This document shows, in pieces, positions 27,734 to 55,840 of a DNA stretch of 64,000 bases (the first letter of the stretch is position 1; each line of letters starts with the position of its first letter). The position numbers and the translations under genes are program-made. Location: contig NC_083424.1 in NCBI RefSeq assembly GCF_020745735.1, forward strand, positions 49,338,999 through 49,402,998, written 5' to 3'. The notes beneath the pieces are model-generated. The model had not been told where the DNA came from, did not search any database, and worked only from the letters and a program-made list of their open reading frames with translations. The stretch comes from Hemiscyllium ocellatum (lineage: Eukaryota).

Positions 27734-28043
27734 TCATTGAGTGTAGACTTTAGTGATATCTCTATATTTTCCATCAGGTGCTTGGTAGTCGGCAATGGGA
27801 GGAGTAAAACTGCATCCTTGCAACTCCAATGGAAAGAGTCCTTGGTCCTGTTTAATGGCAGCCTGGTACAACTGTTCTGATTCAAGCCGCAGTTCCTGCA
27901 GGGCCTGTTGCTGTGCCTTAATCATGGACTGGATCATTTCAGCTTCTCTATCGTGTTCTTTTTGCTTATAACGTGACCACTCTTTCATCAGAAGTGCTCG
28001 CCTCTCACTCTCTTCCATTTTAAGCTTCGGAGGATCGCGGACT
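27734..28043 (-). CDS. MRPL40: MRPL40 exon 4 (terminal), mitochondrial ribosomal protein mL40
   Basis: cctacag|A GTC CGC... Encodes ESERRALLMKEWSRYKQ...[34 protein letters not shown], similar to human ETERRALLLKKWSLYKQ...[23 protein letters not shown]. Confidence 0.95.
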
Positions 28044-29892
28044 CTGTAGGCATCACACACAGCAAAACTTTATTTGGGCTCTATGTGCTTTTAAAAACAA
28101 TATTCACATTGCAGTTTGAGCTGAACCAATGCAATTTCAACATATGCATTCACAATTGTTATTTCTCAGAAATACCATTGAAGTACACTACTACAGATAT
28201 TTAATTATTTGGAAGTGAAATGACTATTGGGACCAAAATAATGAACATTTAGTGCACAGCAAGGTTCCACAAACAGTGTGATAAATGACCTGCCAGTCTA
28301 CTGTTGATTAAGGAAAGACACCAGAATTCATTCAGAAAACAAATCAAGCTTTGCATTTATAAAGTATTTTTCACAAACTTCAGAATGTCTCAAAACAATT
28401 TACAACTCATGAAATACTTTTGAAAGGCAGTCAGTGTTCTAGTGTATGAATGCAACAGTCAACTTCCACAAACAGCAATGTGATGATAACCAAATAATCT
28501 GCTTCAATAATATTAATTGAAGATAAATACTGGTCAATATTTCAGTGAGAATTCTATTTCTATTAATTGAAAAACAAATGAGTAGTTATGCCTTCCTTAA
28601 AAATAGTACTAAAAACAGATTGATCATTCAGCTGACTGGAGTCTTGTGTACGTTATGATCATTGTTACTTGGTTACAATAGACACTGCATTTTCACTTAA
28701 TGAATGGACTGAGAGATGCAGAACTTCAAATTATTTTCTTCAAGTTACGCCTTGGGAGCAGACAGAGTTTCAGTTGAATGGATTATCTGAAGGGCAGCAT
28801 CTGAATAGAGTGCAGCTCTACTGGTGTCCCACTGAGCTCAAAGCTGGGGGTTGAGATGTACAAAAGTCCTATTTAGTTATAAATTGGAGGGTCTGGACCA
28901 ACTTATCAGTTACTTGTACCAAACTTCATAGCCACCTGATCTCTGAATTCACTTTTCTGTCTTCACCTGCACTTACTGCCTAATTCCATCTCATCTAAAT
29001 ACAATATCCTCACTTGATTTGATTTTCCCTCTTTCATCTACACCTTGGACCCATTATTCTTCTCTCCTTAGTTCAGATGTGGATTCATTCAACTGGAGGA
29101 AGATGAACAATGCTGATGGTACAAGACCACTCTTACAAGAAAAAGCAGTCCAAGTTGGAGAATTCACTCTTTCAGCCACACAACAAAACAAATCCAACAC
29201 TGAAACACAATTGTTCAGAATGAGTATTTACAACTCACTAAAAGAACAAAAACTTTAACCAGCCTTTCAACAGTTGGCTCCCAACACAAAGAATTTAACC
29301 AAATGTTGGGATTATGCACAAAACATGTGCTGTATCGCAACAAGACTTCTCTATATATAATTATGGATAAAAAGTGAAATTGTATGAGGTATAAATGTCA
29401 GGTATTTATTTGGATTGTGCGGGATATTCATTAGCATGGTGATTGGTTTTTGTGTGTGTCAGGTACTTAGCAATGAAAAAGCCTCTTCTACCACCTGCAT
29501 TGTGAAGCCCAATATGTGGAATAAATAGATGCTTAAATGTACACTTGTAAGCTCTGAAAATTTTAACAGTTCAGCAAAGTGGTTCACTATCACCTTTGAT
29601 GACAATTAGGAATTGGCAATAAATGTTAGCAATGCCCAAATCTCAGGAGGGAATTTTTTTTTTAAAAAGTGGCCTTTCCTACAGGCTAACTTTGTCCTAA
29701 GCATTGGCATATATGCCATTTTAAATGTTTAGAAGTTGAACTTCTATTTATGTTAGGAGTTTAAAATTATTATGAGAAAACAAAACAACCACAAAGGAGC
29801 CTAATTTCCTGACCAAACCAGTATATTCAGAGAAGATCATTTTGCCTTTTGGAACTATATAATCTTTTAGATTTCTGTCGCATAACACAAAC

Positions 29893-30048
29893 CTTGATTC
29901 ATCAAGTAACTTCGTTGGAGTGTTAAAATCTTCAATTGGGATCAGCTCTGGGGGAACACGTTCCAACTTCTTTAGTCTTTTTCGCAGGCGCTCTCTCGCT
30001 GCCTGTTCTCTTTTGGGATCTATTTTCTTCTTTTTCTTGGGTTCAGCT
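29893..30048 (-). CDS. MRPL40: MRPL40 exon 3
   Basis: ttttgcag|A GCT GAA CCC...TCA AG|gttt. Encodes [41 protein letters not shown]. Phases match both neighbours. Confidence 0.94.
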
Positions 30049-30469
30049 CTGCAAAATAATTGCTTGCAACATTGAAGCATTAACATTGGCTACACCTTCC
30101 TCACACAGGCACAATACCCTTTGATGCAATGATTTCAGGATGAGATTGAAAGGGGAGTTATAATTTTCATGCCTTTTCAATATTTTATTTTTATAATGCC
30201 CCTTCTGTTCCCAAGCCAAATGCCTTGGTTTTATTCAGCTAACCTGTATGTTTTGCTTTCTGACCTCTGCAAATGAATGAAATTGCTGAAAAGTGATTGA
30301 CAGCATCTCATTTCCAAAGATGCATACTCATTATTTTTTTTCTCTCAAAATGGGCCAGGTTAGAACCCTTAAATAAGTTGACGTGCAACATTTACATTTC
30401 CTGCAACATTTACATTTCCAGCAACCTCAGAATTTTGCTTTATTACAGAGCACTATTAGTTATTTCACA

Positions 30470-43315: not shown

Positions 43316-43961
43316 TATTAGGTTCTTTTCCTGAGGTTTCACACACGAGATGCAATTTGCACACACCAACTTCTGCAAACAATTAAAGTTTATTAAAGCC
43401 TGTACAAGCTAGGTACCTCCTTTGACACTCTCTGCAGGCCTGCGAAGTCAAGTCAAAAGAGGCCCCGAACAAAGGATACACATCCCCTTTATACAGGTCA
43501 CTTGGTAATGCTCACAGGTACTCCAACCATCCCCCCCCCCCCATAACCACATGTTACCCCAGGTACAATGGTAAGATGAGGTCATCCTCGGAGATAATGT
43601 AAATGCCCTAATATGAAAACAATTGCCTGACTCTGTGATTCCCCAAAACAATGCAGGTGTGATGTGCTTCAGTATCAGGGGATGGTCACGCAAACAAACT
43701 TGATTGGCTGGGGATGGCTATGAAAGCATATCTGATTGGAAGGAACTGAATGAGAGTTTAATCTGATAATAGCAGTAGAATAGTGTAAATGTCTGCCCAA
43801 ATGAAGCATGAATTACAATAGATAGTCATCCTGTATGCTATCTGTGAGTCAGAAAGTTGCCCCCACCCACTTCCAGAACGTTCAGCTTCTTGGAGAAAGA
43901 CAGGACAGGACATTCCATTAATGTCCAGAGAGATAGTACAATTTAATCTTTTAATATTACA
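43316..43961 (-). repeat. 3' LTR (about 645 bp)
   Basis: Starts TGTAA on the minus strand directly after the purine tract ATAAAAGGGTGAAA. Contains CCAAT (43703-43707, 43735-43739), TATAAA (43488-43493) and AATAAA (43389-43394). Homologous to 50828-51217 plus 52367-52533. Confidence 0.8.
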
Positions 43962-43975
43962 TTTCACCCTTTTAT
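43962..43975 (-). other. Polypurine tract
   Basis: Minus-strand ATAAAAGGGTGAAA immediately abutting the LTR's TG. Confidence 0.7.
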
Positions 43976-44127
43976 CATCCCATGATAATCACTGAGATGA
44001 CACTACCAGCTTTCATAAGACTCTGACAGCCAGTTTTTAAGCAAGTTATTGACACACAACATGCAATGATTATAACAACAAAAATTACTAGTCCATGCAT
44101 TGGTTAGGATCTCCAGGATCCTCCCAT
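43975..44127 (-). pseudogene. env-like transmembrane/cytoplasmic tail remnant
   Basis: Frame reads MGGSWRS*PMHGLVIFVVIIIACCVSITCLKTGCQSLMKAGSVISVIIMG*: a Trp-containing pre-TM segment, a hydrophobic TM and a Cys-containing tail, with the stop at the PPT. Confidence 0.55.
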
Positions 44128-44314
44128 ATGGAAAAAAGTTCACAAGTAAAGTTCTTAAATCCACAGTCCTTAGTGACCACTCCACCCCCTCCAAGTCAAG
44201 TGGAAACAAGCTAGTTCTCTAAAATCTCCTTCAGTAAAGTCCAACCTAAAAACAAAATCCAGTCTGTCCTTCTGCATCACTCCACTGAATGCTTGGATAA
44301 GCGCAGTTAAATAC

Positions 44315-44635
44315 TTAACAAGACTGACAAGACTTTCATCCTTGCAGAGATGCTTCAGATGGAGGATACTGAGTGTGCAGTGCAGCAGCTGTAGCTGCAG
44401 CAGCAGGCGAGGTAAACACAGCATTCTTTGCTGCTTCTGCTCCCGCTCTGTTGTCAAATGTAATCAAGCCAAATGGCTGTTGTGACGTTAGCTTGATCAA
44501 TGAACCTTCATATCCCTCAAATGATCGAAAGAGAAGATTAAACTCATATAGTTTAATGTCCATAGGACGGCCACTGACAAAAAGTGTCCGCACCTCCTCT
44601 TCACTATTGCTAGCTTCTTCACTTTTTGTGCTCAA
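44315..44635 (-). pseudogene. RBPMS2: Processed RBPMS2 (Hermes-type RRM) pseudogene with internal deletion
   Basis: Intronless (L)[27 protein letters not shown]...[32 protein letters not shown] joined to [33 protein letters not shown] (parent ends GWKSRQFC*). TTG replaces the ATG and a TGG has become TGA. Confidence 0.88.
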
Positions 44636-44836
44636 GACTAGGGAACTGATTGAATCTGTTGGATCCGGTTGTGGAGAAGAGGATGATGGTCCAAAGGCAT
44701 GATTTACCTATGAATGGAGAAACTCTAGAGACGATGTTAGCTGCTGAAAGTATCTTTGCATTTCCTCTCTCATTCCTTCCTTGCCAAGGTGGTTATCATA
44801 TGAAGACAGTCACACATTTAACTACACTAAATTTTA

Positions 44837-45549
44837 AGACCATAAGACATAGGAGTGGAAGTAAGGCCATTCGGCCCATCGAGTCCACGCCGCCATTTAA
44901 TCATGGCTGATGGGCATTTCAACTCCACTTACCAGCATTCTCCCTGTAGCCCTTAATTCCTTGTGACATCAAGAATTTATCAATCTCTGCCTTGAAGCTA
45001 TTTAGTGTCCCGGCCTCCACGGCACTCCGCAGCAATGAATTTCACAGGCCCATCACTCTCTGGCTGAAGAGATGTGTCCGCATTTCTGTTCTGAATTTAC
45101 CCCCTTTAATTCTAAGGCTGTGCCCATGGGTCCTAGTCTCCTCGCCTAACGGAAACAATTTCTTAGCATCCACCCTTTCCAAGCCATGTATTATCTTATA
45201 TTAGATCTCCCCTTAACCTTCTAAACTCCAATGAATGCAATCCCAGGAGCCTCAGCCGTTCCTCGTATGTTTGACCTGCCATTCCAGGGATCATCCGTGT
45301 GAATCTCCGCCGGACATGCTCCAGTGCCAGTATGTCCCTCCTGAGGTGTGGGGCCCAAAACTGGACACAGTACTCCAAATGGGGCCTAACCAGAGCTTTA
45401 TAAAGTCTCAGTAGCACATCGCTGCTTTTATATTCCAACCCCCTTGAGATAAATGACAACATTGCATTCGCTTTCTTAATCACGGATTCAACCTGCATGT
45501 TTACTTTAGAGAATCCTTGACTAGCACTCCCAGATCCCTTTGTACTTTG
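44837..45549 (-). mobile_element. CR1 3' fragment nested in the ERV-like element
   Basis: Encodes [21 protein letters not shown]...RRLRGDLI, with aatttt at both flanks. Confidence 0.85.
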
Positions 45550-45831
45550 TAATTTTGTTGGCCGATTTCAACACTCTTTGAATTTGCAATATGAAGGGGG
45601 CCAATGAAGTCTTAGCAATAATTGACAGAACTGAACCAGCTCAGCCTCAAGTTCTAATATTGTCTAAAATCTTAACAAACCGTCAAAATTAAAATGCACT
45701 TGTATTTTTGTGAAAACTCTGCATTAAAAACACAACAGCAAAGATATTTTAATACAATACACTCATCTGGCTAAAGCATGACCACTGACACAATTGTTTT
45801 GTTTTAAACAGGCATTGTAGAATTTCAACTA

Positions 45832-48800
45832 GGAGAAAGTGAGGACTGCAGATGCTAGAGACCAGAGTTGAAAAATGTGGTGCTGGAAAAACACAGCAGG
45901 CCAGGCAGCATCCGAGGAGCAGGAGAATCGACGTTTCGGGCATAAGCCCTTCTTCAGGAATGAGGCTGATGTGGCAAGCGAGCTGAGATAAAGGAAAGGG
46001 GGGAGGGAATTTGGGGGAGGGGCACTGGGAATACGTTAGGTGGAAGGAGGTGAGGGTGAGGGTGATAGGCCGGATAGGGGATGGGGACGGAGAGGTCGGG
46101 AAGAAGATTGCAGGTCGAGAGGGCGGTGCTGAATCCGGGGTTGGGACTGCGATAAGGTGGGGGGAGGGGAATGAAGAAGCTGGAGAAATCTACATTTATC
46201 CCATGTGGTTGGCGGGTTCCTAGGTGGAAGATGAGGCGCTCTTCCTCCAGGCGTTGTGTGGTCAGGGTCTGGCGATGGAGGAGGCCAAGGACCTGCATGT
46301 CCTTGGCGGAGTGGGAGGGGGAGGTAAAGTGTTCAGCCACTGGATGGTTGGGTTGATTGGTGCTGGTGTCCCGGAGGTGTTCCCTGAAACATTACGCAAG
46401 TAGGCGGCCTGTCTCCCCAATGTAGAGGAGACAACATCGGGTGCATCGGATACAGTAAATGATGTGTGTGGAGGTGCAGGTCAACTTGTGGTGGATATGG
46501 AAGGATCCATTGGGGCCTTGGAGGGAGGTGAGGGGGGAGGTGTGGATGCAAGGTTTGCACTTCCTGCGGTTGTAGGGGAAGGTGTTGGGAGTGGAAGTGG
46601 GGTTGGTGGGGGGAGTGGACCTGACGAGGGAGTCACAGAGGGAGTGGTCTCTCCTGAACGCTGATAGGGGTGGGGAGGGAAATATATCCCTGGTGGTGCG
46701 GTCTGTTTGGAGGTGGCGAAAATGACGGTGGATGATACGATGTATCCAGAGGTTGGTGGGGTGAAAGGTGAGGGCCAGTGGGGTTCTGTCCTAGTGGCAA
46801 TTGGAGGGGCGGCGGTGCGGGAAGTGGAGGAGATGCGGTGGAGAGCATTGTTGACCACGTCAGAGGGGTAATTGCGGTCTTTGAAGAAGAAGGCCATTTG
46901 GGTTGTTTGGTAGTGGAATTGGTCCTCCTGAGAGCCGATGCGGTGGAGGCGAAGGAATTGGGAATACGGGATGGCATTTTTAGAGGGGGCAGGGTGGGAG
47001 GATGTGTAATCTAAGTAGCTGTGAGAATCGGTCGGTTTGTAGTAAATGTCTATGTTGATTCGGTCGCCTGAGATAGAAATGGAGAGGTCTAGGAAGGGGA
47101 GTGAGGAGTCTGAGACGTCCAGGTAAATTTGAGGTCGGGGTGGAAGGTGTTAGTAAAGTGGATGAACTGTTCAATCTCCTCGTGGGAGCATGAGGTAGCG
47201 CCAATACAATCATCGATGTAGCGGAGGAAAAGGTGGGGGCTGATGCCGGTGTAGCTGCAGAAGATGGACTCTTCCTCATATCTGACGAAGAGGCAGGCAT
47301 AGCTGTGGCCCATACGGGTGCCCATTGCTACTCCTTTGGTTTGGAGGAAATGGGAGGATTGGAAGGAGAAGTTGTTAAGAGTGAGGACCAGTTCAGTCAG
47401 TCGAAGGAGGGTGTCAGTGGAAGGGTACTGGTTGGGTCGGCGGGAGAGGAAGAAGCAGAGAACTTGGAGGCCTTCTTGATGGGCGATGGAAGTGTATAGG
47501 GACTGGATGTCCATCATGAAGATAAGATGATGGGGGCCGGGGAAGCGAATCATGGAGGAGGTGGAGGGCGCGGGTGGTGTCCTAAACATAGGTGGGGAGT
47601 TCTTGGACTAAGGGGGACAGGACAGTGTCGAGGTATGCAGGGATAAGTTTGGTGGGGCAGGAGCAGACTGAGACAATAGGTCGGCTGGGGCAGTTGGGTT
47701 TGTGGATTTTGGGCAGGAGGTGGAAACGGGTGGTGCGGGGTTGTGGGACTATGAAGTTAGAGGCGGTGGATGGGAGATCTCCTGGGGTGATGAGGTTATG
47801 GATGATCTGGGAGATGATGGTTTGGTGGTGGGAGGTGGGGTCATGGTCAAGGGGACAGTAGGAGGAGGTGTCTGCGAGTTGGCATCTAGCTTCAGCAGTG
47901 TAAAGATCGGTGCGCCGAACCACCACTGCGCCTCCCTTGTGCACAGTGCTAGTTTGGCACTCCGATGCTCTCCACCGCATCTCCTCCACTTCCCGCACCT
48001 CCAATTGCCACCAGGACAGAACCCCACCTTTCACCCCACCAACCTCCGGATACATGTATCATCCACCGTCATATCCACCACCTACAAACAGACCCCACCA
48101 CCAGGGATATATTTCCCCCCCCTCCCCTATCAGCGTTCAGGAGAGACCACACCCTCTGCGACTCCCTCGTTAGGTCCACACCACCCCATCAACCCCACCT
48201 CCACTCCTGGCACCTTCCCCTGCAACCGCAAGAAGTGCAAACTTGCGTCCACACCTCCCCCCTCACATCCATCCAAGGCCCCAATGGATCCTTCCATATC
48301 CATCGCAAATTCACCTACACCTCCACACACATCATTTACTGTATCCATTGCACCCGATGTGGTCTCCTCTACATTGGGGAGACAGGCCACCTACTTGCGG
48401 AACGTTTCAGGGAACACCTCTGGGACACCCGCACCAATTAACTCAATCAAACAAATTGATTGAGGGCCGTGAGCCCCTGATTTGTTTGAAATTCTACAAG
48501 TTGAAAAATGTGGTGCTGGAAAAACACAGCAGGCCAGGCAGCATCCGAGGAGCAGGAGAATCGACGTTTCGGGCATAAGCCCTTCATCAGAAATGAGGCT
48601 GTTGTGCCAAGCGAGCTGAGATAAAGGGTAACTCCCCCTCCCACTCTGTCAAAGACATGCAGGTCCTTTGCCTCCTCCATCGCCAGACCCTGACCACACA
48701 ACGCCTGGAGGAAGAGCGCCTCATCTTCCACCTAGGAACCCTCCAACCACATGGGATAAATGTAGATTTCTCCAGCTTCCTCATTTCCCCTCTCCCCACC

Positions 48801-48976
48801 TTATCGCAGTCCCAACCCCCGGATTCAGCACTGCCCTCTTGACCTGCAATCTTCTTCCAGACCGCTCCGCCCCCACCCCCTCTCCGGCCTATCACCCTCA
48901 CCCTCACCTCCTTCCACCTATCATATTCCCAGCACCCCTCCCCCAAATTCCCTCCCCCCTACCCTTTATCTCAGCT
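45832..48976 (-). mobile_element. Rearranged Penelope-like element (RT + GIY-YIG) with inverted segments
   Basis: Minus-strand RT motifs LLPKIHKP..RPIVS, MDIQSLYTSI, QTKGVAMGT and RYIDD. Plus-strand inverted copy of the GIY-YIG region (IIYCIHCTRCGLLYIGETG) at about 47960-48437. Terminal repeat present twice. Confidence 0.9.
48563..48590 (-). ncRNA. Minimal hammerhead motif (Penelope tail); sister copies at 9669-9696 (+), 13940-13967 (+), 42216-42243 (+) and 45930-45957 (-)
   Basis: CTGA(T/A)GA-A-GGGC-TTAT-GCCC-GAAA-CG-TC. Confidence 0.55.
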
Positions 48977-49112
48977 GGTTCTAATTCAAATAAGGCAAAA
49001 CTGATACTGCGTTATTTTCTGAAGCAGTGTTTTAACAAACTGAAATATTTAAATATCAAACACTTTCAGTATGGCATAATTTACATTGAAACATCCCCCT
49101 CGATCTAAGTTT

Positions 49113-49915
49113 ACAGAGTCATAGAGATGTACAGCACAAAAACAGACTCTTTGGTCCAACTCATCCATGCCGACCAGATATCCCAACCCAATCTAGTCCC
49201 ACCTGCCAGCACCCGGCTCATATTCCTCCAAAACTTTCCTATCACATACTCCAGATGCCTTTATATGTTGCAATTGTACGAGCCTCCAGTATTGTGTGCA
49301 ATTCTCCTTTCTATCGGAAAGATGTTGTGAAATTTGAAAGGGTTCAGAAAATATTTACAAGGATGTTGCCAGAGTTGGAGGATTTGAGCTATAGGGAGAG
49401 ACTGAACAAACTGTGGCTGTTTTCCCTGGAGTGTAGGAGGCTGAGGGGTGACCTTGTAGAGCTTTACAAAATTATAAGGGGCATGGATAGGACAAATAGA
49501 CAGTTTTTTCCCTGGGTTGGGGGAGTCCAGAACTAGACGGCATAGATTTAGGGTGAGACGGGAAAGATGTAAAAGGGACTTAAGGGGCAACCTTTTCATG
49601 CAGAGGGTGGTGTATGTGTGGAATGAGCTGCCAGAGGAAGTAGTGGCAGCTGGTACAATCGCAACATATAAAAGGCAATTGGATGGGTATATGAATAGGA
49701 AAGATTTGGAGGGATATGAGCTGGGTGCTGGCAGGTGGGATAAGATTTGGTTGGGATAACTGATCAGCATGGATGGTTTGGACCGAAGGGTCTGTTTCCA
49801 TGCTGCACATCTCTATGACTTTATGACTTCCTCTGGCAGCTCATTCCATACACGCACCACCTCTGCATGAAAAAGCCTAATCAACCTCCCCTATAGCTCA
49901 AATCCTCCAATCCTT
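49113..49915. mobile_element. CR1 3' end with internal inversion
   Basis: Minus-strand tail 49113-49290, plus-strand body and tail 49290-49828, then minus-strand sequence resumes at about 49828-49915. Confidence 0.75.
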
Positions 49916-50394
49916 CTCGTTTTTTTTTGCATTCGCTCCATGACATTACACTTATAAAAATAGAAAACCCTTGCAGCAGACCACAAGGTGCCACAGTGCA
50001 AGCCACTCCCCTTCCCTCACAGAGTTGAGTTTGCAGCCCAGAAACAGAGACTCCCACAACAAAACCTGGAGAAAGCTTTCCCAGCAGTCAGTGCACTTCA
50101 CTGTTGGGATCCGAATGGACTGGCTTCACTTTCTTCCCCTTTTCATGGTGACGCCATGTTGTACGAAACGTACTTCCCAGGAGTGGAGTGGGCGATAAAG
50201 GCAATAACTTTAAGATGTATCAAATTTTGTTTATATGTTTTTCTTTGAAGTTTCTGATTTCTAATTTTTTAATGCTCTGGAGCCTCAAACCTTGTGTCTG
50301 TAGAACATTAACCCCTTTTACCAAGGGGCTCTAACTCCTTTCTGATTTTACGTCTCAGAGGGACACGGACCCCTTTTCTTACTCTATTATATCT

Positions 50395-50607
50395 GGGGAT
50401 TTGAACCCCAATTAAAACCCGGGGGTCTCTAACCCCAATTAAAATCCAGGGGACTCTAACCCTAAGTGATCCAGAGATCTCTAACCCCAATTAAAACACA
50501 GGGAACTCTAAGCCCAATTAAAATCCAGGGGACTCTAACCCTATGTGATCCAGAGGTCTCTAACCCCAATTAAAACACAGGGGACTCTAACCCCAATTAA
50601 ACCCCAG
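50395..50607. repeat. Tandem minisatellite, about 8 units of 25-28 bp with a 3-unit higher-order period
   Basis: Repeated ggg(g)actctaaccccaattaaaa..ca and ggggactctaacccta.gtgatcca units. Confidence 0.85.
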
Positions 50608-51217
50608 CTTCATGCAAAACGACTCGTTAGTGTACGAGTTACCTCAAAGATTCCATTACCACCAAGTCCCAGGAGTCGAGGAGTCAGCTGAGTGTTAAGT
50701 TTAGAGAGGCAGAGAAAGAGATCAAGGTGAATCTTACCTTGTGGGCCCATTCATCTCATGCAACCAACACTCAGATGATTGCATATTCAAGTTCCATTTA
50801 TGTTGGAGTCCTACTGCAGCCGACATATGTTGGGTTTGTTTCCCGAGGTTCCATACATGAGATGTAATTCACACACACCAACTTCTGCAAACAATTAAAG
50901 TTTATTAAAGCCTGTATAAGCTAGGTGAACATGGTTGAAACTCTTCGCAGGTGTGTGAAGTCAAGTCAAAAGAGGCCCCGAACAAAGGAAATACGTCCCC
51001 TTTATACAGGTCAGTTGGTAATGCTCACAGGTACTCCACCACTCCCCACCCCCATAACCACATGTTGCCCAGATACAATGGTAGGATGATGATGTAAATT
51101 ATCCTCGTAGGTAATGTAAATGTATATGCCCAAATCCTAGGGAATCATTATACAAATGATTTCCTGACTCAGTGATTCCCCAAGATAATGTGGGTATGAT
51201 ATGCTTCAATATCAGGG

Positions 51218-51806
51218 CTACGAACAGTGATCTGTTTGAGGTTTGGTGGTTGTTTAAAGGCAAGTAATGGAGGTGTGGGGAAGGTTTTGGTGAGGTGCTC
51301 ATCCTCATTGATAACCTCAAACAGATCACTGTTCATAGCAAACTGCCCGGCTCTCAGGACAACTCCATACAACCCTGTCACGGTGGACGCTGCAAGACAT
51401 GTTAGATTGTGGACATAGATACCACTATTATGCGTGGGAACACCTCCCACTTTGTACATGGTAGGTACTCATGTGACTCAGCCAACGTTGTCTATCTTAT
51501 ACGTTGCAGGCAAGGATGCCCGGAGGCATAGTATATTGGGGAAACCGAGCAAAGGCTACGACAACGGATGAATGGGCACCGCACAACAATCAACAGACAG
51601 GAGGGTTCCCTCCCAGTTGGGGAACACTTCAGTGGTCCAGGACATTCAGCCTTGGACCTTTGGGTGACCATCCTCCAAGGTGGACTTCGGGACAGGCAGC
51701 AGAGGAAAGTGGCTGAGCAGAGGCTGATAGCTAAGTTCAGTACCCATAGGGAGGGCCTCAACCAGGACTTTGGATTCAAGTCACATTACAGGTGATCACC
51801 ATTGCA

Positions 51807-51844
<38 letters not shown>

Positions 51845-52366
51845 ACAGACAGACAAAGACCTACATGCACACATGTATTTTGTGTGGTGAATTTGTGCTT
51901 GCAGAGTTACATTGCACTTTGCTGAAAAACTGCATACATCCATGTAAAACTCTGAGCTCAAAAACTGCATGAATTTATGCAAAACTCTGTTATCTCACTT
52001 TTTAGATTAGAATCAATCTAAACATCAGGTCATAGACAGAGAACACAGGGGGCTAACACCTTCAACATATTGTCTAGCTGTCACCATTGTTAACAGCTAA
52101 CCCGAGAATGCAACTTTAAAAAAAAGGGTTTTGTGATTTACACATGAAAGAAGTGAAACTATCACTGTATTCTAACAGATGAAAGGCTTAACAATCAATT
52201 TTTCAATGTATAATTTCAGTTACATCACACTGCAAATTTTTGCTATAAATTCTGTGTTACAATCGAGCCCTCCACAATCACCTGATGAAGGAGTATCGCT
52301 CTGAAAGCTAGTGTGCTTCCAATTAAACATGTTGGACTATAACCTGGTGTTGTGTGATTTTTAACT
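51218..52366 (+). mobile_element. Penelope-like element 3' fragment (GIY-YIG region, CA-rich tail, hammerhead motif) with inverted 5' segment
   Basis: Encodes VYLIRCRQGCPEA*YIGETEQRLRQRMNGHR. Same family as 20470-23070. 51221-51243 is an inverted copy of sequence near 51314-51336. (CA)n at about 51808-51849. Confidence 0.85.
52279..52313 (+). ncRNA. Minimal hammerhead motif (third Penelope family)
   Basis: cac-CTGATGA-A-GGAG-tatcg-CTCT-GAAA-GC-TA-gtg, with palindromic AAGCTA/AGCT stem III. Confidence 0.5.
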
Positions 52367-55300
52367 TTACAATAGATAGCCATCCACATTCCTGCATTGC
52401 TGCCTGTGACACAGAATGTCACCACCACGCCACAGCATGTCCAGCATGTTCAGCTTTTTGGAGAAAGACAGTACAGTTTAACCCTTACGTTAATGTCCAG
52501 AGAAATAGTACAATTTAATCTTTTAACAATACAAATTAAACTGGCAAACAAATTCAACAATTCAAATAAAAGGATGAGGATGCTGCATCATTTGTTGTGG
52601 AATATTGTGTATATATTATCTTTCTGCTGACTTGTTGGATATTATTGCTTTTGTACCACAACTGGGATAATTAAAATGCAATCATGTAAATTATTTTAAT
52701 TATCGGAAATGACAATAAATCTATCCTTTGTTTTCATACTACCCTTCCTATTAAACACCTCTAAATTGGTTTTCTCTCTAGAAATAGAATAATAATTTGT
52801 TTCTTAATCCCATTTACCATACATCCTTTAATGATTTGAATTTTTCATCATAGCAGATTATTGATCCAAGCTAATTTGCCTGTTCTGTATACAATAATCT
52901 GGGAAACTAAGTCACATCAAAGTGTAACTTCCCTCCAAATGAATCAAGTACAATTTTCTTAGAACTTTAAATGACTTAAGCATATGATCTAGGCTGATAC
53001 TTGAATGCAGTAATGAGGGTGTGTTGCACTGTAGCAGCAGGTTTTTTTTTAAATGTTGGGATGTCCAACATGTCCACCTTAAAAATTGAGCATTCCACAT
53101 CTCAGGTCATAAAGAGAAAAGTAATCCCTGGTTTCTCCCTGACAAATTATCTTATTTTGTTACTACTTGAGGGATCTTGCTGCACTTTAATTTGTTGATG
53201 CATTTCCTGTTAATTCCAAGAATTATATTTAAAATACTTGATTAACTATAATTACGTTGGGATACCTGAAGTGTTGAAAGCGTCATAAAACCATGGGATG
53301 GCTACAGTGCAGCACGACATCTCATTTGCTTCACACTGCAAATGTGAAGTTGTTCTTTTGGAAAGAAGAACAAAACGAAGAGTATTACTTTAATGGAGAA
53401 AATCAAAAAAACCTGCAACACAAAGGGACTTGGGGGTATTTGTGTATGAAACTTAGACAGCTAGCACACAAGTGTAGCAGATAATCAGTAAGGCTAATGC
53501 GATGTTGGCCCTTATTTCAAGGGGTTTGGATTATAAGAGTAAGGAAGTTTTATTGCAATTGTACAGACTGCTGAGTACTGCGAGCAGTCCTAATCCCCTT
53601 ATTTAAAAAAAAATATTTTACAGAAGATTTGCTAGGAAGATCTCTCTACTGAGGGGTTTTCTTATGAGCAAGGGTTAACTGGTGTGGGACTCTATTCATT
53701 GGAAGTTAGAAGACTAAGTGGTGATCTAATTGAAAGATATAGATTCCTTAAAGGACTTGGCAGGGTAAATGCTGGGATAATGTTTCACTACATGGGAGTG
53801 TTGTACCCGCCACACAGTGTGTTTAAATTCTTATATTCAGCAAAAGAACTGTTAGTTGAGTCTTATCGACAATAATATTTGTTTATTGAACACAATTAAT
53901 GTTAGAACAATAAAGTATATTATAAACTAATGAAAAAATACTGTAAACTATCTTATGCTTTAACTTTGTATGATTGTATACCATCACACTAGAACTTGGC
54001 TGGAATCCACATGGCGATGTCTTCTTCTTCTGATGGTCTTACTCTCAAGTTACCACCCTGAGTGGGGTTTTGCGATGATTCTTATCCTCCTGACTCTTCT
54101 GGGAGAGTCTTGAGGATCTGCCAATGGATTAATCAAGTTTGATTAATCAAGTTTGATCAATCAGACTCAAACAGGTGTTGGCACATTGATGGCAGACTGG
54201 CCCTTTGGTGTCCATTTATGGTAGGTACTGGATGCATGTAGCCCCCTCCAAATAAGGGTGCTTGGCATCTCTGCATTTAGTAAATGAGTCACTGCTCCCG
54301 ATTGTCCCAAAGGCAACATTCCATGGTCCTGTTCAAGTTCAACTTCAGGTGTGTATTGCAGGGTCTACAGCTGTCAAGTTTGTTTGCAAATCATCTGTGG
54401 GCAACTGGAGGCTGTCTGGATTGTGCAGCATGTGAATTAGCACAGTCACTTTCATCAAGGCTGGGTTCTATTTCCCATTGTCCATCTTTTGTAACTCCAT
54501 GATAAGTTTATTATTGTCCATCATAAGTTCATTATTTCGAGTGCCTGGCCATGAGAGAGTGTAGGATCATTTCTGTGGGTTGTCTTTGGAACTCCTTGCT
54601 ACAGACAGCTGTGGGGACAGAGTCCTTGTGTACATTTAAGGCTGAGCTGTATAGGTTCTTGATCAGTCGGGTAATTGAGGGTTGAAAGGAAATGGCAGGA
54701 ACGTGAATGAGGAATGTTGGATCAGTCATTATCCTATTGAATGATGTATCAAGCTATAGGTGCTGAATGAACTACTCCTATTTCTATTTTTTATGGTTTT
54801 ATAAATTCTGTGCAAAGGTAATTTAGTTTGTCTCCACAGTTTCCATACAGTCCTGCAGTATCTTTTCCTTCAATATGTTATTGTTTTATTATTTGCAATC
54901 TGCTTTCAGTATTCTTTCAGATAGTGAATTCTGGACCATAGCCACTCGCATTGGAGAATATTCTTCCAAATGTCGACTTTTTGGTCATTTTGCCAGTCAT
55001 CTTTATTCTGGGATTGATGGATCTCAATCCTTCTGGAATAGTTTCTCTCTAATCCGTCTACTCAGCCTCAAGATTTTGAGCTCATCTGCTAAATCTCTTT
55101 TCAGTTCTCTTCTGGGAATGAAGAGAACAACATCTTCAAATTTATCTACTTGAATAAACTCCTTCATTCACTGAAACCATACAAGTACCTTCTATCCATA
55201 AATGGAAACCTTAGGGAGTAACTGGATTTCACTTCCGTGTAGTGACTGGGACTGCATTCTCTCCAGCAGGGCGCTGAAGGATTTACCAGTTGCTGAATAC

Positions 55301-55539: not shown

Positions 55540-55840
55540 CTTGACTTTTCCTCGGAGCGTTGCGGCCGCGGTTCGCGGCTTTCCGGGGAGTGCTGAGTGC
55601 GTTGCTCCCTTCCGGCGGGAGCGGAGTGAGAGACCGGGGCCACCCCGGGGACGGTGACACCAGGACCGAGCGAGGAGCAGCTTGAGTCCCAGGCATCAGG
55701 GCCCAGCATGAAGCTGCTGAAACCCGCTTGGGTCCATCACAATGGTGAGCGGGTGCGCGGGGTTGGGGGGGGGGGGAGCTGTGCAGGGGAGCGGGCGAGC
55801 TCCCCTCTGGCAATGGGAGGTAGGAAGCCGGGGAGAGCAA
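55540..55840 (+). promoter_or_regulatory. HIRA promoter/5'UTR CpG island
   Basis: GC/CpG-rich stretch (gcggccgcgg, TTCCGG twice) around the HIRA start exon. Confidence 0.7.
55708..55744 (+). CDS. HIRA: HIRA histone chaperone, coding exon 1 (gene continues beyond the window)
   Basis: cagcATG AAG CTG CTG AAA CCC GCT TGG GTC CAT CAC AAT G|gtgagc encodes MKLLKPAWVHHN(G), versus human MKLLKPTWVNHNG. Head-to-head with MRPL40 as in human. Exon 2 was not found in the window. Confidence 0.92.

What the first reader, a model, noticed from the sequence alone, without database searches (positions are those of the whole stretch)
43316..52533. ERV-like provirus whose interior appears replaced by a captured, spliced host mRNA (RBPMS2)
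Seen, reading the minus strand: 5' LTR (52533-50828), PBS-like site, AG|GTAAG donor (50739-50733), leader minisatellite, non-viral-looking sequence, intronless RBPMS2 CDS (44635-44315), env-like TM remnant, PPT, then 3' LTR (43961-43316). No gag/pol motif remains once the nested CR1 and Penelope insertions are removed. The cDNA is in the sense orientation of the provirus and has no poly(A) tract or obvious TSD of its own. Established: LTR elements and retroviruses capture cellular mRNAs by template switching (as in acutely transforming retroviruses), whereas LINE-made retrocopies normally end in poly(A). RBPMS2/Hermes is an oocyte-enriched RNA-binding protein in fish and frogs, so germline co-packaging is plausible. 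Inference: this is a non-autonomous, host-gene-transducing endogenous retrovirus in a cartilaginous fish, possibly an amplified family.
Basis: partly seen in the sequence, partly recalled or inferred. Interest (0 to 1): 0.88.

Follow-up and report, generated by a model that had tools for sequence, protein, structure and literature searches.

The report
Shark retrovirus relic carrying captured RBPMS2
This is a dead copy of a retrovirus-derived element in a shark genome that carries a spliced copy of the host's RBPMS2 gene and sits at hundreds of places, likely spread by helper retroviruses with the gene as a passenger; such captures are known in other vertebrates, but not at this scale in the papers I read.

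Summary
Confirmed, with corrections. The element has two LTRs (K2P 0.16), a decayed tRNA-Leu primer site, a polypurine tract and a near-perfect 4-bp target duplication. Its cargo is spliced RBPMS2 mRNA, mapped to the parent gene on C181. Searches list 258 distinct loci; overlap estimates give about 370-430. Copies share an 8-nt microhomology between the RBPMS2 3'UTR and env of class I ERV relics found in this genome, and show no poly(A).

Corrections: integrase remnants lie just upstream of the cargo, half of the 'env remnant' is RBPMS2 3'UTR, and the reading frame lacks 85 codons. Three cargo classes sit on three LTR types. Two of these types match gag-pol-env relics of two distinct ERV lineages, so the cargo likely changed helper. 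Copies decayed neutrally (pN/pS 0.94 against 0.86 expected), so the gene is likely a passenger. A 1.1-kb AT-rich insert remains unexplained.

Precedents: crocodilian KIT-ligand and nectin3 captures, and LTR-mediated retrocopies. This scan noted the same family earlier in two other genomes. Verdict: new member of a known kind, notable for scale.

The parts
52534..52537 (-). Left target-site duplication (AATT)
   Evidence: sequence; 3 of 4 bases match the right copy
50828..52533 (-). 5' LTR, type C (TG...CA), split by a Penelope-like insertion at about 52369-51209
   Evidence: 75-81% to the LTR of gag-pol-env relic L111
50808..50825 (-). Decayed primer-binding site, tRNA-Leu type
   Evidence: type-C sister copy L025 matches the 3' end of genomic tRNA-Leu genes exactly; the window copy differs from it at 6 of 21 bases read by eye
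50733..50739 (-). Leader splice-donor motif AG|GTAAG (predicted)
   Evidence: same motif in carriers of all LTR types and in ERV relic L117; use as a donor not tested
50395..50607 (-). Leader minisatellite (27-bp unit, 79-bp higher-order unit)
   Evidence: related arrays in sister copies
45568..50020 (-). Remnants of a ~1.1-kb AT-rich non-coding insert of unknown origin (about 50020-49914, 49110-48981, 48499-48449 inverted, 45828-45568), interrupted by later insertions
   Evidence: collinear in sister copies; no match to ERV relics or to the 200-kb parent region
49115..49915 (.). Nested CR1-like LINE fragments (later insertion)
   Evidence: matches other repeats in the window and is absent from sister copies at this place; the CR1 label rests on recalled motifs
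45830..48976 (.). Nested Penelope-like element with inverted partial copy (later insertion)
   Evidence: RVT_1 at 47089-47607, long inverted arms; the Penelope label rests on recalled motifs
44837..45567 (-). Nested CR1-like fragment lying where sister copies have about 430 bp more of the AT-rich insert
   Evidence: no hit of that piece in the window
44687..44812 (-). Fused integrase remnants (zinc-finger part 44812-44769, C-terminal part 44773-44687), containing a predicted splice acceptor at 44709-44708
   Evidence: Integrase_H2C2 in relic L101; acceptor use not tested
44315..44661 (-). Captured RBPMS2 5'UTR end and coding sequence, spliced, lacking CDS nt 214-469; start codon and frame broken in this copy
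   Evidence: 85.7% identity to the parent mRNA over 530 aligned nt
44119..44314 (-). Captured RBPMS2 3'UTR (exon 7 tail plus exon 8), ending in the 8-nt microhomology TGGGAGGA at 44126-44119
43975..44126 (-). env transmembrane and cytoplasmic tail remnant
   Evidence: 91.7% to env of relic L108 over 84 nt; env of sister relic L102 hits TLV_coat at E 0.001, below the curated cut-off
43962..43973 (-). Polypurine tract
   Evidence: AAAAGGAGGGAA in most copies, decayed here
43316..43961 (-). 3' LTR, type C, with AATAAA at 43394
   Evidence: 78% over 688 aligned nt to the LTR of relic L111
43312..43315 (-). Right target-site duplication (AATA)

Best explanation
The window holds one dead copy of a family of several hundred class I ERV-derived elements whose interior carries spliced RBPMS2 mRNA, likely captured once by reverse-transcriptase template switching and then likely spread in the germline by helper retroviruses with the gene as a passenger. 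Shown: the cargo is spliced and sense-oriented, joins an RT fragment at its 5' end and the env tail at its 3' end, and is flanked by LTRs, PBS, PPT and 4-bp TSDs at dispersed loci. Shown: three cargo classes (full length, deletion 1, deletion 2) and three LTR types, two of which match gag-pol-env relics that carry no RBPMS2. Inferred order: capture into a defective type-B element; two independent internal deletions; gain of the AT-rich insert in the deletion-1 lineage; recombination onto type-C (this copy) and type-A LTRs and leaders, the last being the most numerous among copies sampled; then neutral decay and later LINE and Penelope insertions. Inferred: capture occurred in oocytes, where RBPMS2 mRNA is abundant in zebrafish and Xenopus.
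For: Parent with eight exons on C181. Exon junctions crossed without introns: junctions 1-3 in 58-59 of 59 copies, 4-5 in 16 of 59, 6 in 46 and 7 in 43. 150 of 150 scored candidates matched, of 658; 258 distinct listed loci on 42 contigs, overlap estimates 374-428. 3' switch point: TGGGAGGA shared by parent 3'UTR and env of L108; 5' switch point: an RT-derived piece (74-80% to six relics) meets the 5'UTR at CCCCT. TSDs read by eye in 17 copies: 7 exact, 2 exact if the end is shifted, 3 with one mismatch, 5 with two or more. PBS complementary to genomic tRNA-Ser(AGA) or tRNA-Leu genes. RNase H remnant matches MLV/XMRV; relic RT best matches MLV. Type C LTR equals that of L111/L101/L102/L110; type A equals that of L220, with rve and TLV_coat above cut-off. 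Neutral decay: pN/pS 0.94 (del-1), 0.90 (full) against 0.86 expected; between classes 1 synonymous and 8 non-synonymous differences; TAG at codon 160 in 20 of 36 readable del-1 copies; all five interior segments diverge alike, 0.15-0.17.
Against: The del-2 class has pN/pS 0.68 against 0.82 expected, a mild deficit not tested for significance. Class yardstick versus parent shows 15 synonymous and 2 non-synonymous differences (full+del-2), which looks like purifying selection; it is also what parent-lineage drift alone predicts, and no outgroup gene DNA was available to split the two. Deletion 1 is in frame. The order of events rests on structure; the tree is star-like with little support. No intact helper was found, and no gag-pol-env relic with a pure type-B LTR pair was shown. 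Internal deletion ends have only 1-3 nt of microhomology.
Confidence: 0.8

Rival explanations
1. Same capture and spread, but the RBPMS2 protein was expressed from the env-type spliced mRNA and helped the early element in oocytes, like a viral accessory gene; function was lost later.
For: Cargo sits in the env position behind a predicted acceptor; 15 synonymous versus 2 non-synonymous differences between the full+del-2 yardstick and the parent; del-2 pN/pS 0.68; NCBI models in Chiloscyllium plagiosum read leader-to-cargo open frames (P0002, P0003); crocodilian captures show purifying selection (PMC4299795, passages).
Against: The commonest class lacks the last strand of the RRM (fold knowledge recalled) and often carries a stop; differences between classes are neutral (1:8 and 3:13); 50 of 59 copies are broken by a stop or shift in the aligned part; the synonymous excess (13.8%) is close to the 9-12% that copies gained since insertion.
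Confidence: 0.1
2. The captured RNA itself was favoured: RBPMS2 UTR or coding sequence carries a Balbiani-body localisation signal that would steer element RNA into the germ plasm and raise germline transmission.
For: Xenopus hermes RNA and zebrafish rbpms2a RNA are enriched in the Balbiani body (PMC6049948, section 6). All three classes keep exons 1-4 and about 140 nt of 3'UTR. Copy number far exceeds the precedents read.
Against: No segment is better conserved than the others among copies (this tests decay after insertion only). Retention follows from descent from few masters. L105 is a two-LTR derivative that has lost nearly all cargo. Whether sharks set germ cells aside by germ plasm was not checked.
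Confidence: 0.07
3. A LINE-made RBPMS2 processed pseudogene landed inside a provirus, and the chimera was then copied by the ERV.
For: LINEs are abundant here; a poly(A) tail could have been removed by a later deletion.
Against: No poly(A) and no flanking duplication; the cargo ends about 200 nt into a 3'UTR exon that runs on, exactly at an 8-nt word shared with env; viral sequences on the two sides are not neighbours in the ERV (RT on the left, env tail on the right).
Confidence: 0.03

Closest known systems
Crocodilian ERVs with captured host mRNA: CrocERV31 (nectin3) and CrocERV29 (KIT-ligand), Chong et al. 2014, PMC4299795 (passages read)
   Same: Spliced host mRNA inside an ERV, replicated in the germline, shared across species; nectin3 replaces env as RBPMS2 does here.
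   Different: Six and nine copies there, several hundred here; ERV4 (nectin3 case) versus class I here; purifying selection reported there, neutral decay here; three LTR types and two helper lineages here.
LTR-mediated retrocopies, Tan et al. 2016, PMC5131818 (passages read), including FAM8A1 in HERV-K, mouse IAPEy cases and maize Bs1 as cited there
   Same: Retrocopy flanked by discontinuous LTR-element sequence, microsimilarity at switch points, no poly(A), secondary retroposition as a non-autonomous element.
   Different: Their cases have one to a few insertion sites (Bs1 one to five); no shark was examined; no change of LTR family was described in the passages read.
ERV-Hako relics with SUSD6 or SPHKAP 3'UTR pieces, and RecKoRV as mentioned there, PMC11905727 (two passages read)
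   Same: Defective ERVs carrying host UTR sequence at several loci and depending on helpers; a possible parallel for the AT-rich insert.
   Different: UTR pieces only, few copies named; here a whole spliced coding sequence was taken.
Acutely transforming, replication-defective retroviruses (recalled; outlined in PMC4299795)
   Same: Host cDNA replaces viral genes between 5' and 3' viral remnants and needs a helper.
   Different: Those are somatic and selected for the protein; this is germline, fixed and shows no protein-level selection.

Membership tests
LTR retroelement / provirus | Paired LTRs with TG...CA ends | tested here: met
   23 of 62 carriers gave a pair of at least 250 aligned nt within the fetched 10 kb; the window 3' LTR ends TA
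LTR retroelement / provirus | tRNA primer-binding site next to the 5' LTR | tested here: met
   Ser(AGA) for type A, Leu for type C; the type-B and second type-A sites were not matched to tRNA genes
LTR retroelement / provirus | Polypurine tract before the 3' LTR | tested here: met
   pattern found in 43 of 62 carriers
LTR retroelement / provirus | Short target-site duplication | tested here: met
   7 exact 4-bp TSDs of 17 readable copies; 3 of 4 bases in the window
Class I (gamma/epsilon-like) ERV | MLV-like pol and gamma-type env TM in the source element | tested here: met
   the L102 env hit is below the Pfam cut-off, the L220 env hit above it
Class I (gamma/epsilon-like) ERV | Placement in an RT tree with named gamma and epsilon viruses | not tested
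   no named reference sequences were fetched; gamma versus epsilon is open
LTR-mediated retrocopy (Tan et al. 2016) | Intronless host mRNA between discontinuous parts of the element | tested here: met
LTR-mediated retrocopy (Tan et al. 2016) | Microsimilarity at switch points | tested here: met
   8 nt at the 3' end, about 5 nt at the 5' end; read from alignments of old copies, no shuffle test at the junction
LTR-mediated retrocopy (Tan et al. 2016) | No LINE hallmarks (poly(A), own TSD) | tested here: met
   for the window; for seven more copies
LTR-mediated retrocopy (Tan et al. 2016) | Transcription from the LTR | not testable with these tools
   only contigs of guessed RNA runs were available
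Functional retrogene / selected viral accessory gene | Intact frame under purifying selection | tested here: not met
   for present copies; the earliest stem could not be resolved
LINE-made processed pseudogene | Poly(A) tail and TSD around the cDNA | tested here: not met

The most novel reading that the evidence does not exclude
The family spread to hundreds of copies because the captured RBPMS2 RNA carries a Balbiani-body zip code that delivered retroviral RNA to the germ plasm, making a host localisation signal a selfish germline-targeting device that three LTR lineages took over in turn; the AT-rich insert would be a second captured UTR with a like role.
Probability: 0.08. Interest if true: 0.85.

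Novelty: new member of a known kind. Interest (0 to 1): 0.5.

Why it matters
It is a large, well-preserved fossil series of retroviral gene capture in a vertebrate germline: parent gene, pre-capture virus, both switch points, successive deletions and helper changes can all be read in one genome. It shows that an ERV, not a LINE, can make hundreds of processed pseudogenes of one gene, and that cargo can be carried without protein-level selection. In practice it explains spurious 'RBPMS2-like' gene models in bamboo-shark annotation, gives insertion markers for shark phylogeny, and raises a testable question about small RNAs from these copies acting on a gene needed for ovary fate in zebrafish.

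Tried and rejected
Source of the AT-rich insert: two genome searches with natural copies. All 30 + 30 loci returned and 4 more fetched were family copies or truncated copies; the other listed rows were matched to known loci by position or not checked. No match in ERV relics, in the parent's 200 kb or in Rfam. A cargo-less variant formed by recombination at a PPT-like stretch in integrase was suspected in L130, L157 and L159; they are truncations by other sequence. Pfam found nothing for the short gag, RNase H, integrase and env pieces of L061. A search for longer homologues of a relic pol fragment found none; a search with the chimeric N-terminus found only P0001. The tree gave no usable support for the order of classes (L034, L042, L064 left out). 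Sequencing runs: no RNA holder listed. Contigs of two guessed-RNA runs cover the element and the flanking repeats alike, so nothing follows on expression. One contig of organism B runs from the flank 29 nt into the LTR end, short of the 31 needed to count as bridging. Dating in years was rejected: the only shark rate read is per generation (7e-10, PMC10587355 passages) and would imply about 1e8 generations. Paper searches for RBPMS + retrocop + shark and RBPMS + shark + LTR + pseudogene returned 0; subscription journals, Repbase/Dfam and supplements were not seen.
Full report
Observation. On the minus strand the window shows two related repeats, 52533-50828 and 43961-43316, aligning at 75-80% with gaps and 14.1% substitutions over 509 nt, K2P 0.159. 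The first is split by a Penelope-like insertion. Flanks read AATT and AATA.

Parent and cargo. Protein hits were mostly RBPMS2. A skate RBPMS2 query located the parent on C181; 200 kb fetched there gave eight exons over about 110 kb with GT-AG edges. The window copy is 85.7% identical to the spliced mRNA over 530 aligned nt and lacks CDS nt 214-469. It crosses exon junctions 1, 2, 3, 6 and 7 without introns. Window 44284-44132 is exon-8 3'UTR, not env. There is no A-run and no AATAAA between the stop codon and the 3' LTR.

Family. The window peptide matched 150 of 150 scored candidates, of 658. Listed rows, plus 60 rows picked, give 258 distinct loci on 42 contigs; overlaps of 13-15 of 39 with the first list give 374-428. 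These are biased to well-kept copies, and not every locus was inspected. Forty copies were fetched at 10 kb: all 40 hold the cargo, 39 the integrase piece and 38 the downstream piece, in the same order. Twenty more came from the full-length query. Three classes emerged: full length (8 used), deletion 2 (10, starting at CDS nt 456-459) and deletion 1 (41 with the window; 33 exactly 214-469, 40 starting at 211-216, one irregular). L066 was dropped as a duplicate of L064; L074 and L077 were not classed.

LTR hallmarks. A PPT pattern was found in 43 of 62 carriers and an LTR pair in 23; median K2P 0.156, range 0.10-0.21 (one pair, L053, is probably another repeat). TSDs read by eye in 17 copies: 7 exact 4-mers, 2 exact with a shifted end, 3 with one mismatch, 5 worse. 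Primer sites differ by LTR type. The type-A site is complementary to tRNA-Ser(AGA) genes (3 of 3 loci scanned) and the type-C site to tRNA-Leu genes (2 of 2).

Source virus and junctions. Full-length and deletion-2 copies keep gag, RNase H and integrase pieces; the RNase H piece matches MLV and XMRV. Searching with it and fetching 20 loci gave relics with longer pol and env and no RBPMS2, among them L101, L102, L104, L108-L111 and L117, besides two more carriers and several deletion derivatives. Their RT is closest to MLV among solved structures; Pfam hits are weak but consistent. At the 3' end the parent UTR and the relic env share TGGGAGGA, and the element switches there; two random break points would share 8 nt about once in 10,000 (my arithmetic). 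At the 5' end an RT-derived piece meets the 5'UTR at CCCCT. The deletion-1 class has lost that piece. Window 44812-44687 is fused integrase and 44126-44043 is env.

Helper switching. By the sequence after the PPT, full-length copies are 7 type B and 1 unassigned, deletion-2 copies 10 B, and deletion-1 copies 30 A, 6 B, 3 C (the window among them) and 2 unassigned. The three example LTRs do not align with each other at E 0.01, though B and C share a 3' part in some comparisons. The window's LTR is 78% identical over its length to that of relic L111. A search with a type-A leader gave 27 of 30 loci with the AT-rich insert, two unresolved and one with gag; that locus is a gag-integrase-env relic with type-A LTRs from a more distant lineage. 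I infer that the cargo-bearing interior recombined onto new LTRs at least twice. The tree puts full-length and deletion-2 copies near the parent but is star-like with little support, so the order rests on nested structure.

Selection. Against per-column yardsticks, copies show pN/pS 0.94, 0.90 and 0.68 (del-1, full, del-2) with neutral expectations of 0.86, 0.86 and 0.82. Between classes the counts are 1 synonymous to 8 non-synonymous and 3 to 13. Codon 160 is TAG in 20 of 36 readable deletion-1 copies. Against the parent, full+del-2 shows 15 to 2; pS 0.138 is near the 0.09-0.12 that copies gained since insertion, so drift of the conserved parent can explain it, but early selection is not excluded. 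50 of 59 copies have a stop or frameshift. Five interior segments diverge equally.

Age and range. L050 shares 7 of 12 rare residues with a C. plagiosum model, so insertions likely predate that split. DNA-type runs labelled as two other organisms hold about a fifth of the window's words, and their contigs cover all 30 bins of the laid stretch, mostly at 90-95%; no listed contig bridges the insertion site by the tool's standard. No age in years is given.

Comparison. Tan et al. (PMC5131818; passages) describe the mechanism and secondary spread at a few sites. Chong et al. (PMC4299795; passages) report nine KIT-ligand and six nectin3 copies under purifying selection. PMC11905727 (two passages) reports UTR pieces in ERV-Hako. 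PMC6049948 (abstract and section 6) gives oocyte and Balbiani-body localisation of the RNA in zebrafish and Xenopus. PMC10587355 (passages) gives the per-generation rate. Shark ERV papers were seen as listings only. Searches found no paper on this family; Repbase, Dfam, subscription journals and supplements were not seen. This scan's earlier notes e1-8025832 and e1-8023565 describe the same family in other genomes; they are not independent evidence, and their claims were tested here.

Verdict. A real, old, dead copy of a host-gene-carrying, non-autonomous class I ERV family. The mechanism is known. The scale, the three cargo classes, the change of helper lineage and the unexplained insert make it a good case study. 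New member of a known kind; interest 0.5.

Noticed in passing
window 55708-55744 (+) and 29895-30050, 27743-28048 (-): A first coding exon that reads like HIRA (identity recalled, not tested; a next-exon motif was not found in the window) lies 3.2 kb from the 5' LTR. PF09812 exons (MRPL40 by recall) lie on the minus strand, so the element likely sits in sense orientation in a 5' intron or upstream of that gene; its first exons were not located.
   Followed up: partly
L060 5670-6815 (oriented); remnants in window 50020-45568: 1.1-kb insert, 33% GC, stops in all six frames, confined to the deletion-1 class; source not found. Possibly a second captured host UTR.
   Followed up: partly
L050 (G000:C4:17541198) and P0001 (XP_043545055.1): L050 shares 7 of 12 rare residues with this C. 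plagiosum model; the next best of 41 copies shares 2. Likely one insertion, older than the split of the two species.
   Followed up: partly
P0001-P0003, P0088: Four NCBI 'RBPMS2-like' models in C. plagiosum look like copies of this family; P0001-P0003 begin with integrase-derived residues and P0002-P0003 with leader residues.
   Followed up: partly
L220-L221 (G000:C2:77533778 onward): A gag-pro-integrase-env relic with type-A LTRs, about 40-60% amino-acid identity to the type-B/C relics in short aligned stretches: a second class I lineage.
   Followed up: partly
L061 6745-6930: In full-length and deletion-2 copies the viral pieces are out of order: integrase C-terminus, then a weakly gag-like piece, then an RT piece, then the cargo, pointing to several switches or a recombination between two defective genomes.
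   Followed up: partly
L064/L066, L060/L163, C200:16263952/16287948: Near-identical neighbouring pairs (94-98% in parts for L060/L163; the C200 pair judged from position and similar match rows only), likely segmental duplications; they slightly inflate the count of independent insertions.
   Followed up: no
G000 C189, C262, C579, C881, C53: Long tandem arrays (about 3.6-kb spacing) of the tRNA-Ser 3' motif.
   Followed up: no
L036, L040, L050, L055: A type-A subgroup has a different primer site (TGGCGAGCC...), resembling tRNA-Arg by recall; type-B copies resemble tRNA-Ser(GCT) by recall.
   Followed up: no
L052 and L213 (same locus, G000:C3:80009704 onward): The leader minisatellite has expanded to more than 1 kb.
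   Followed up: no
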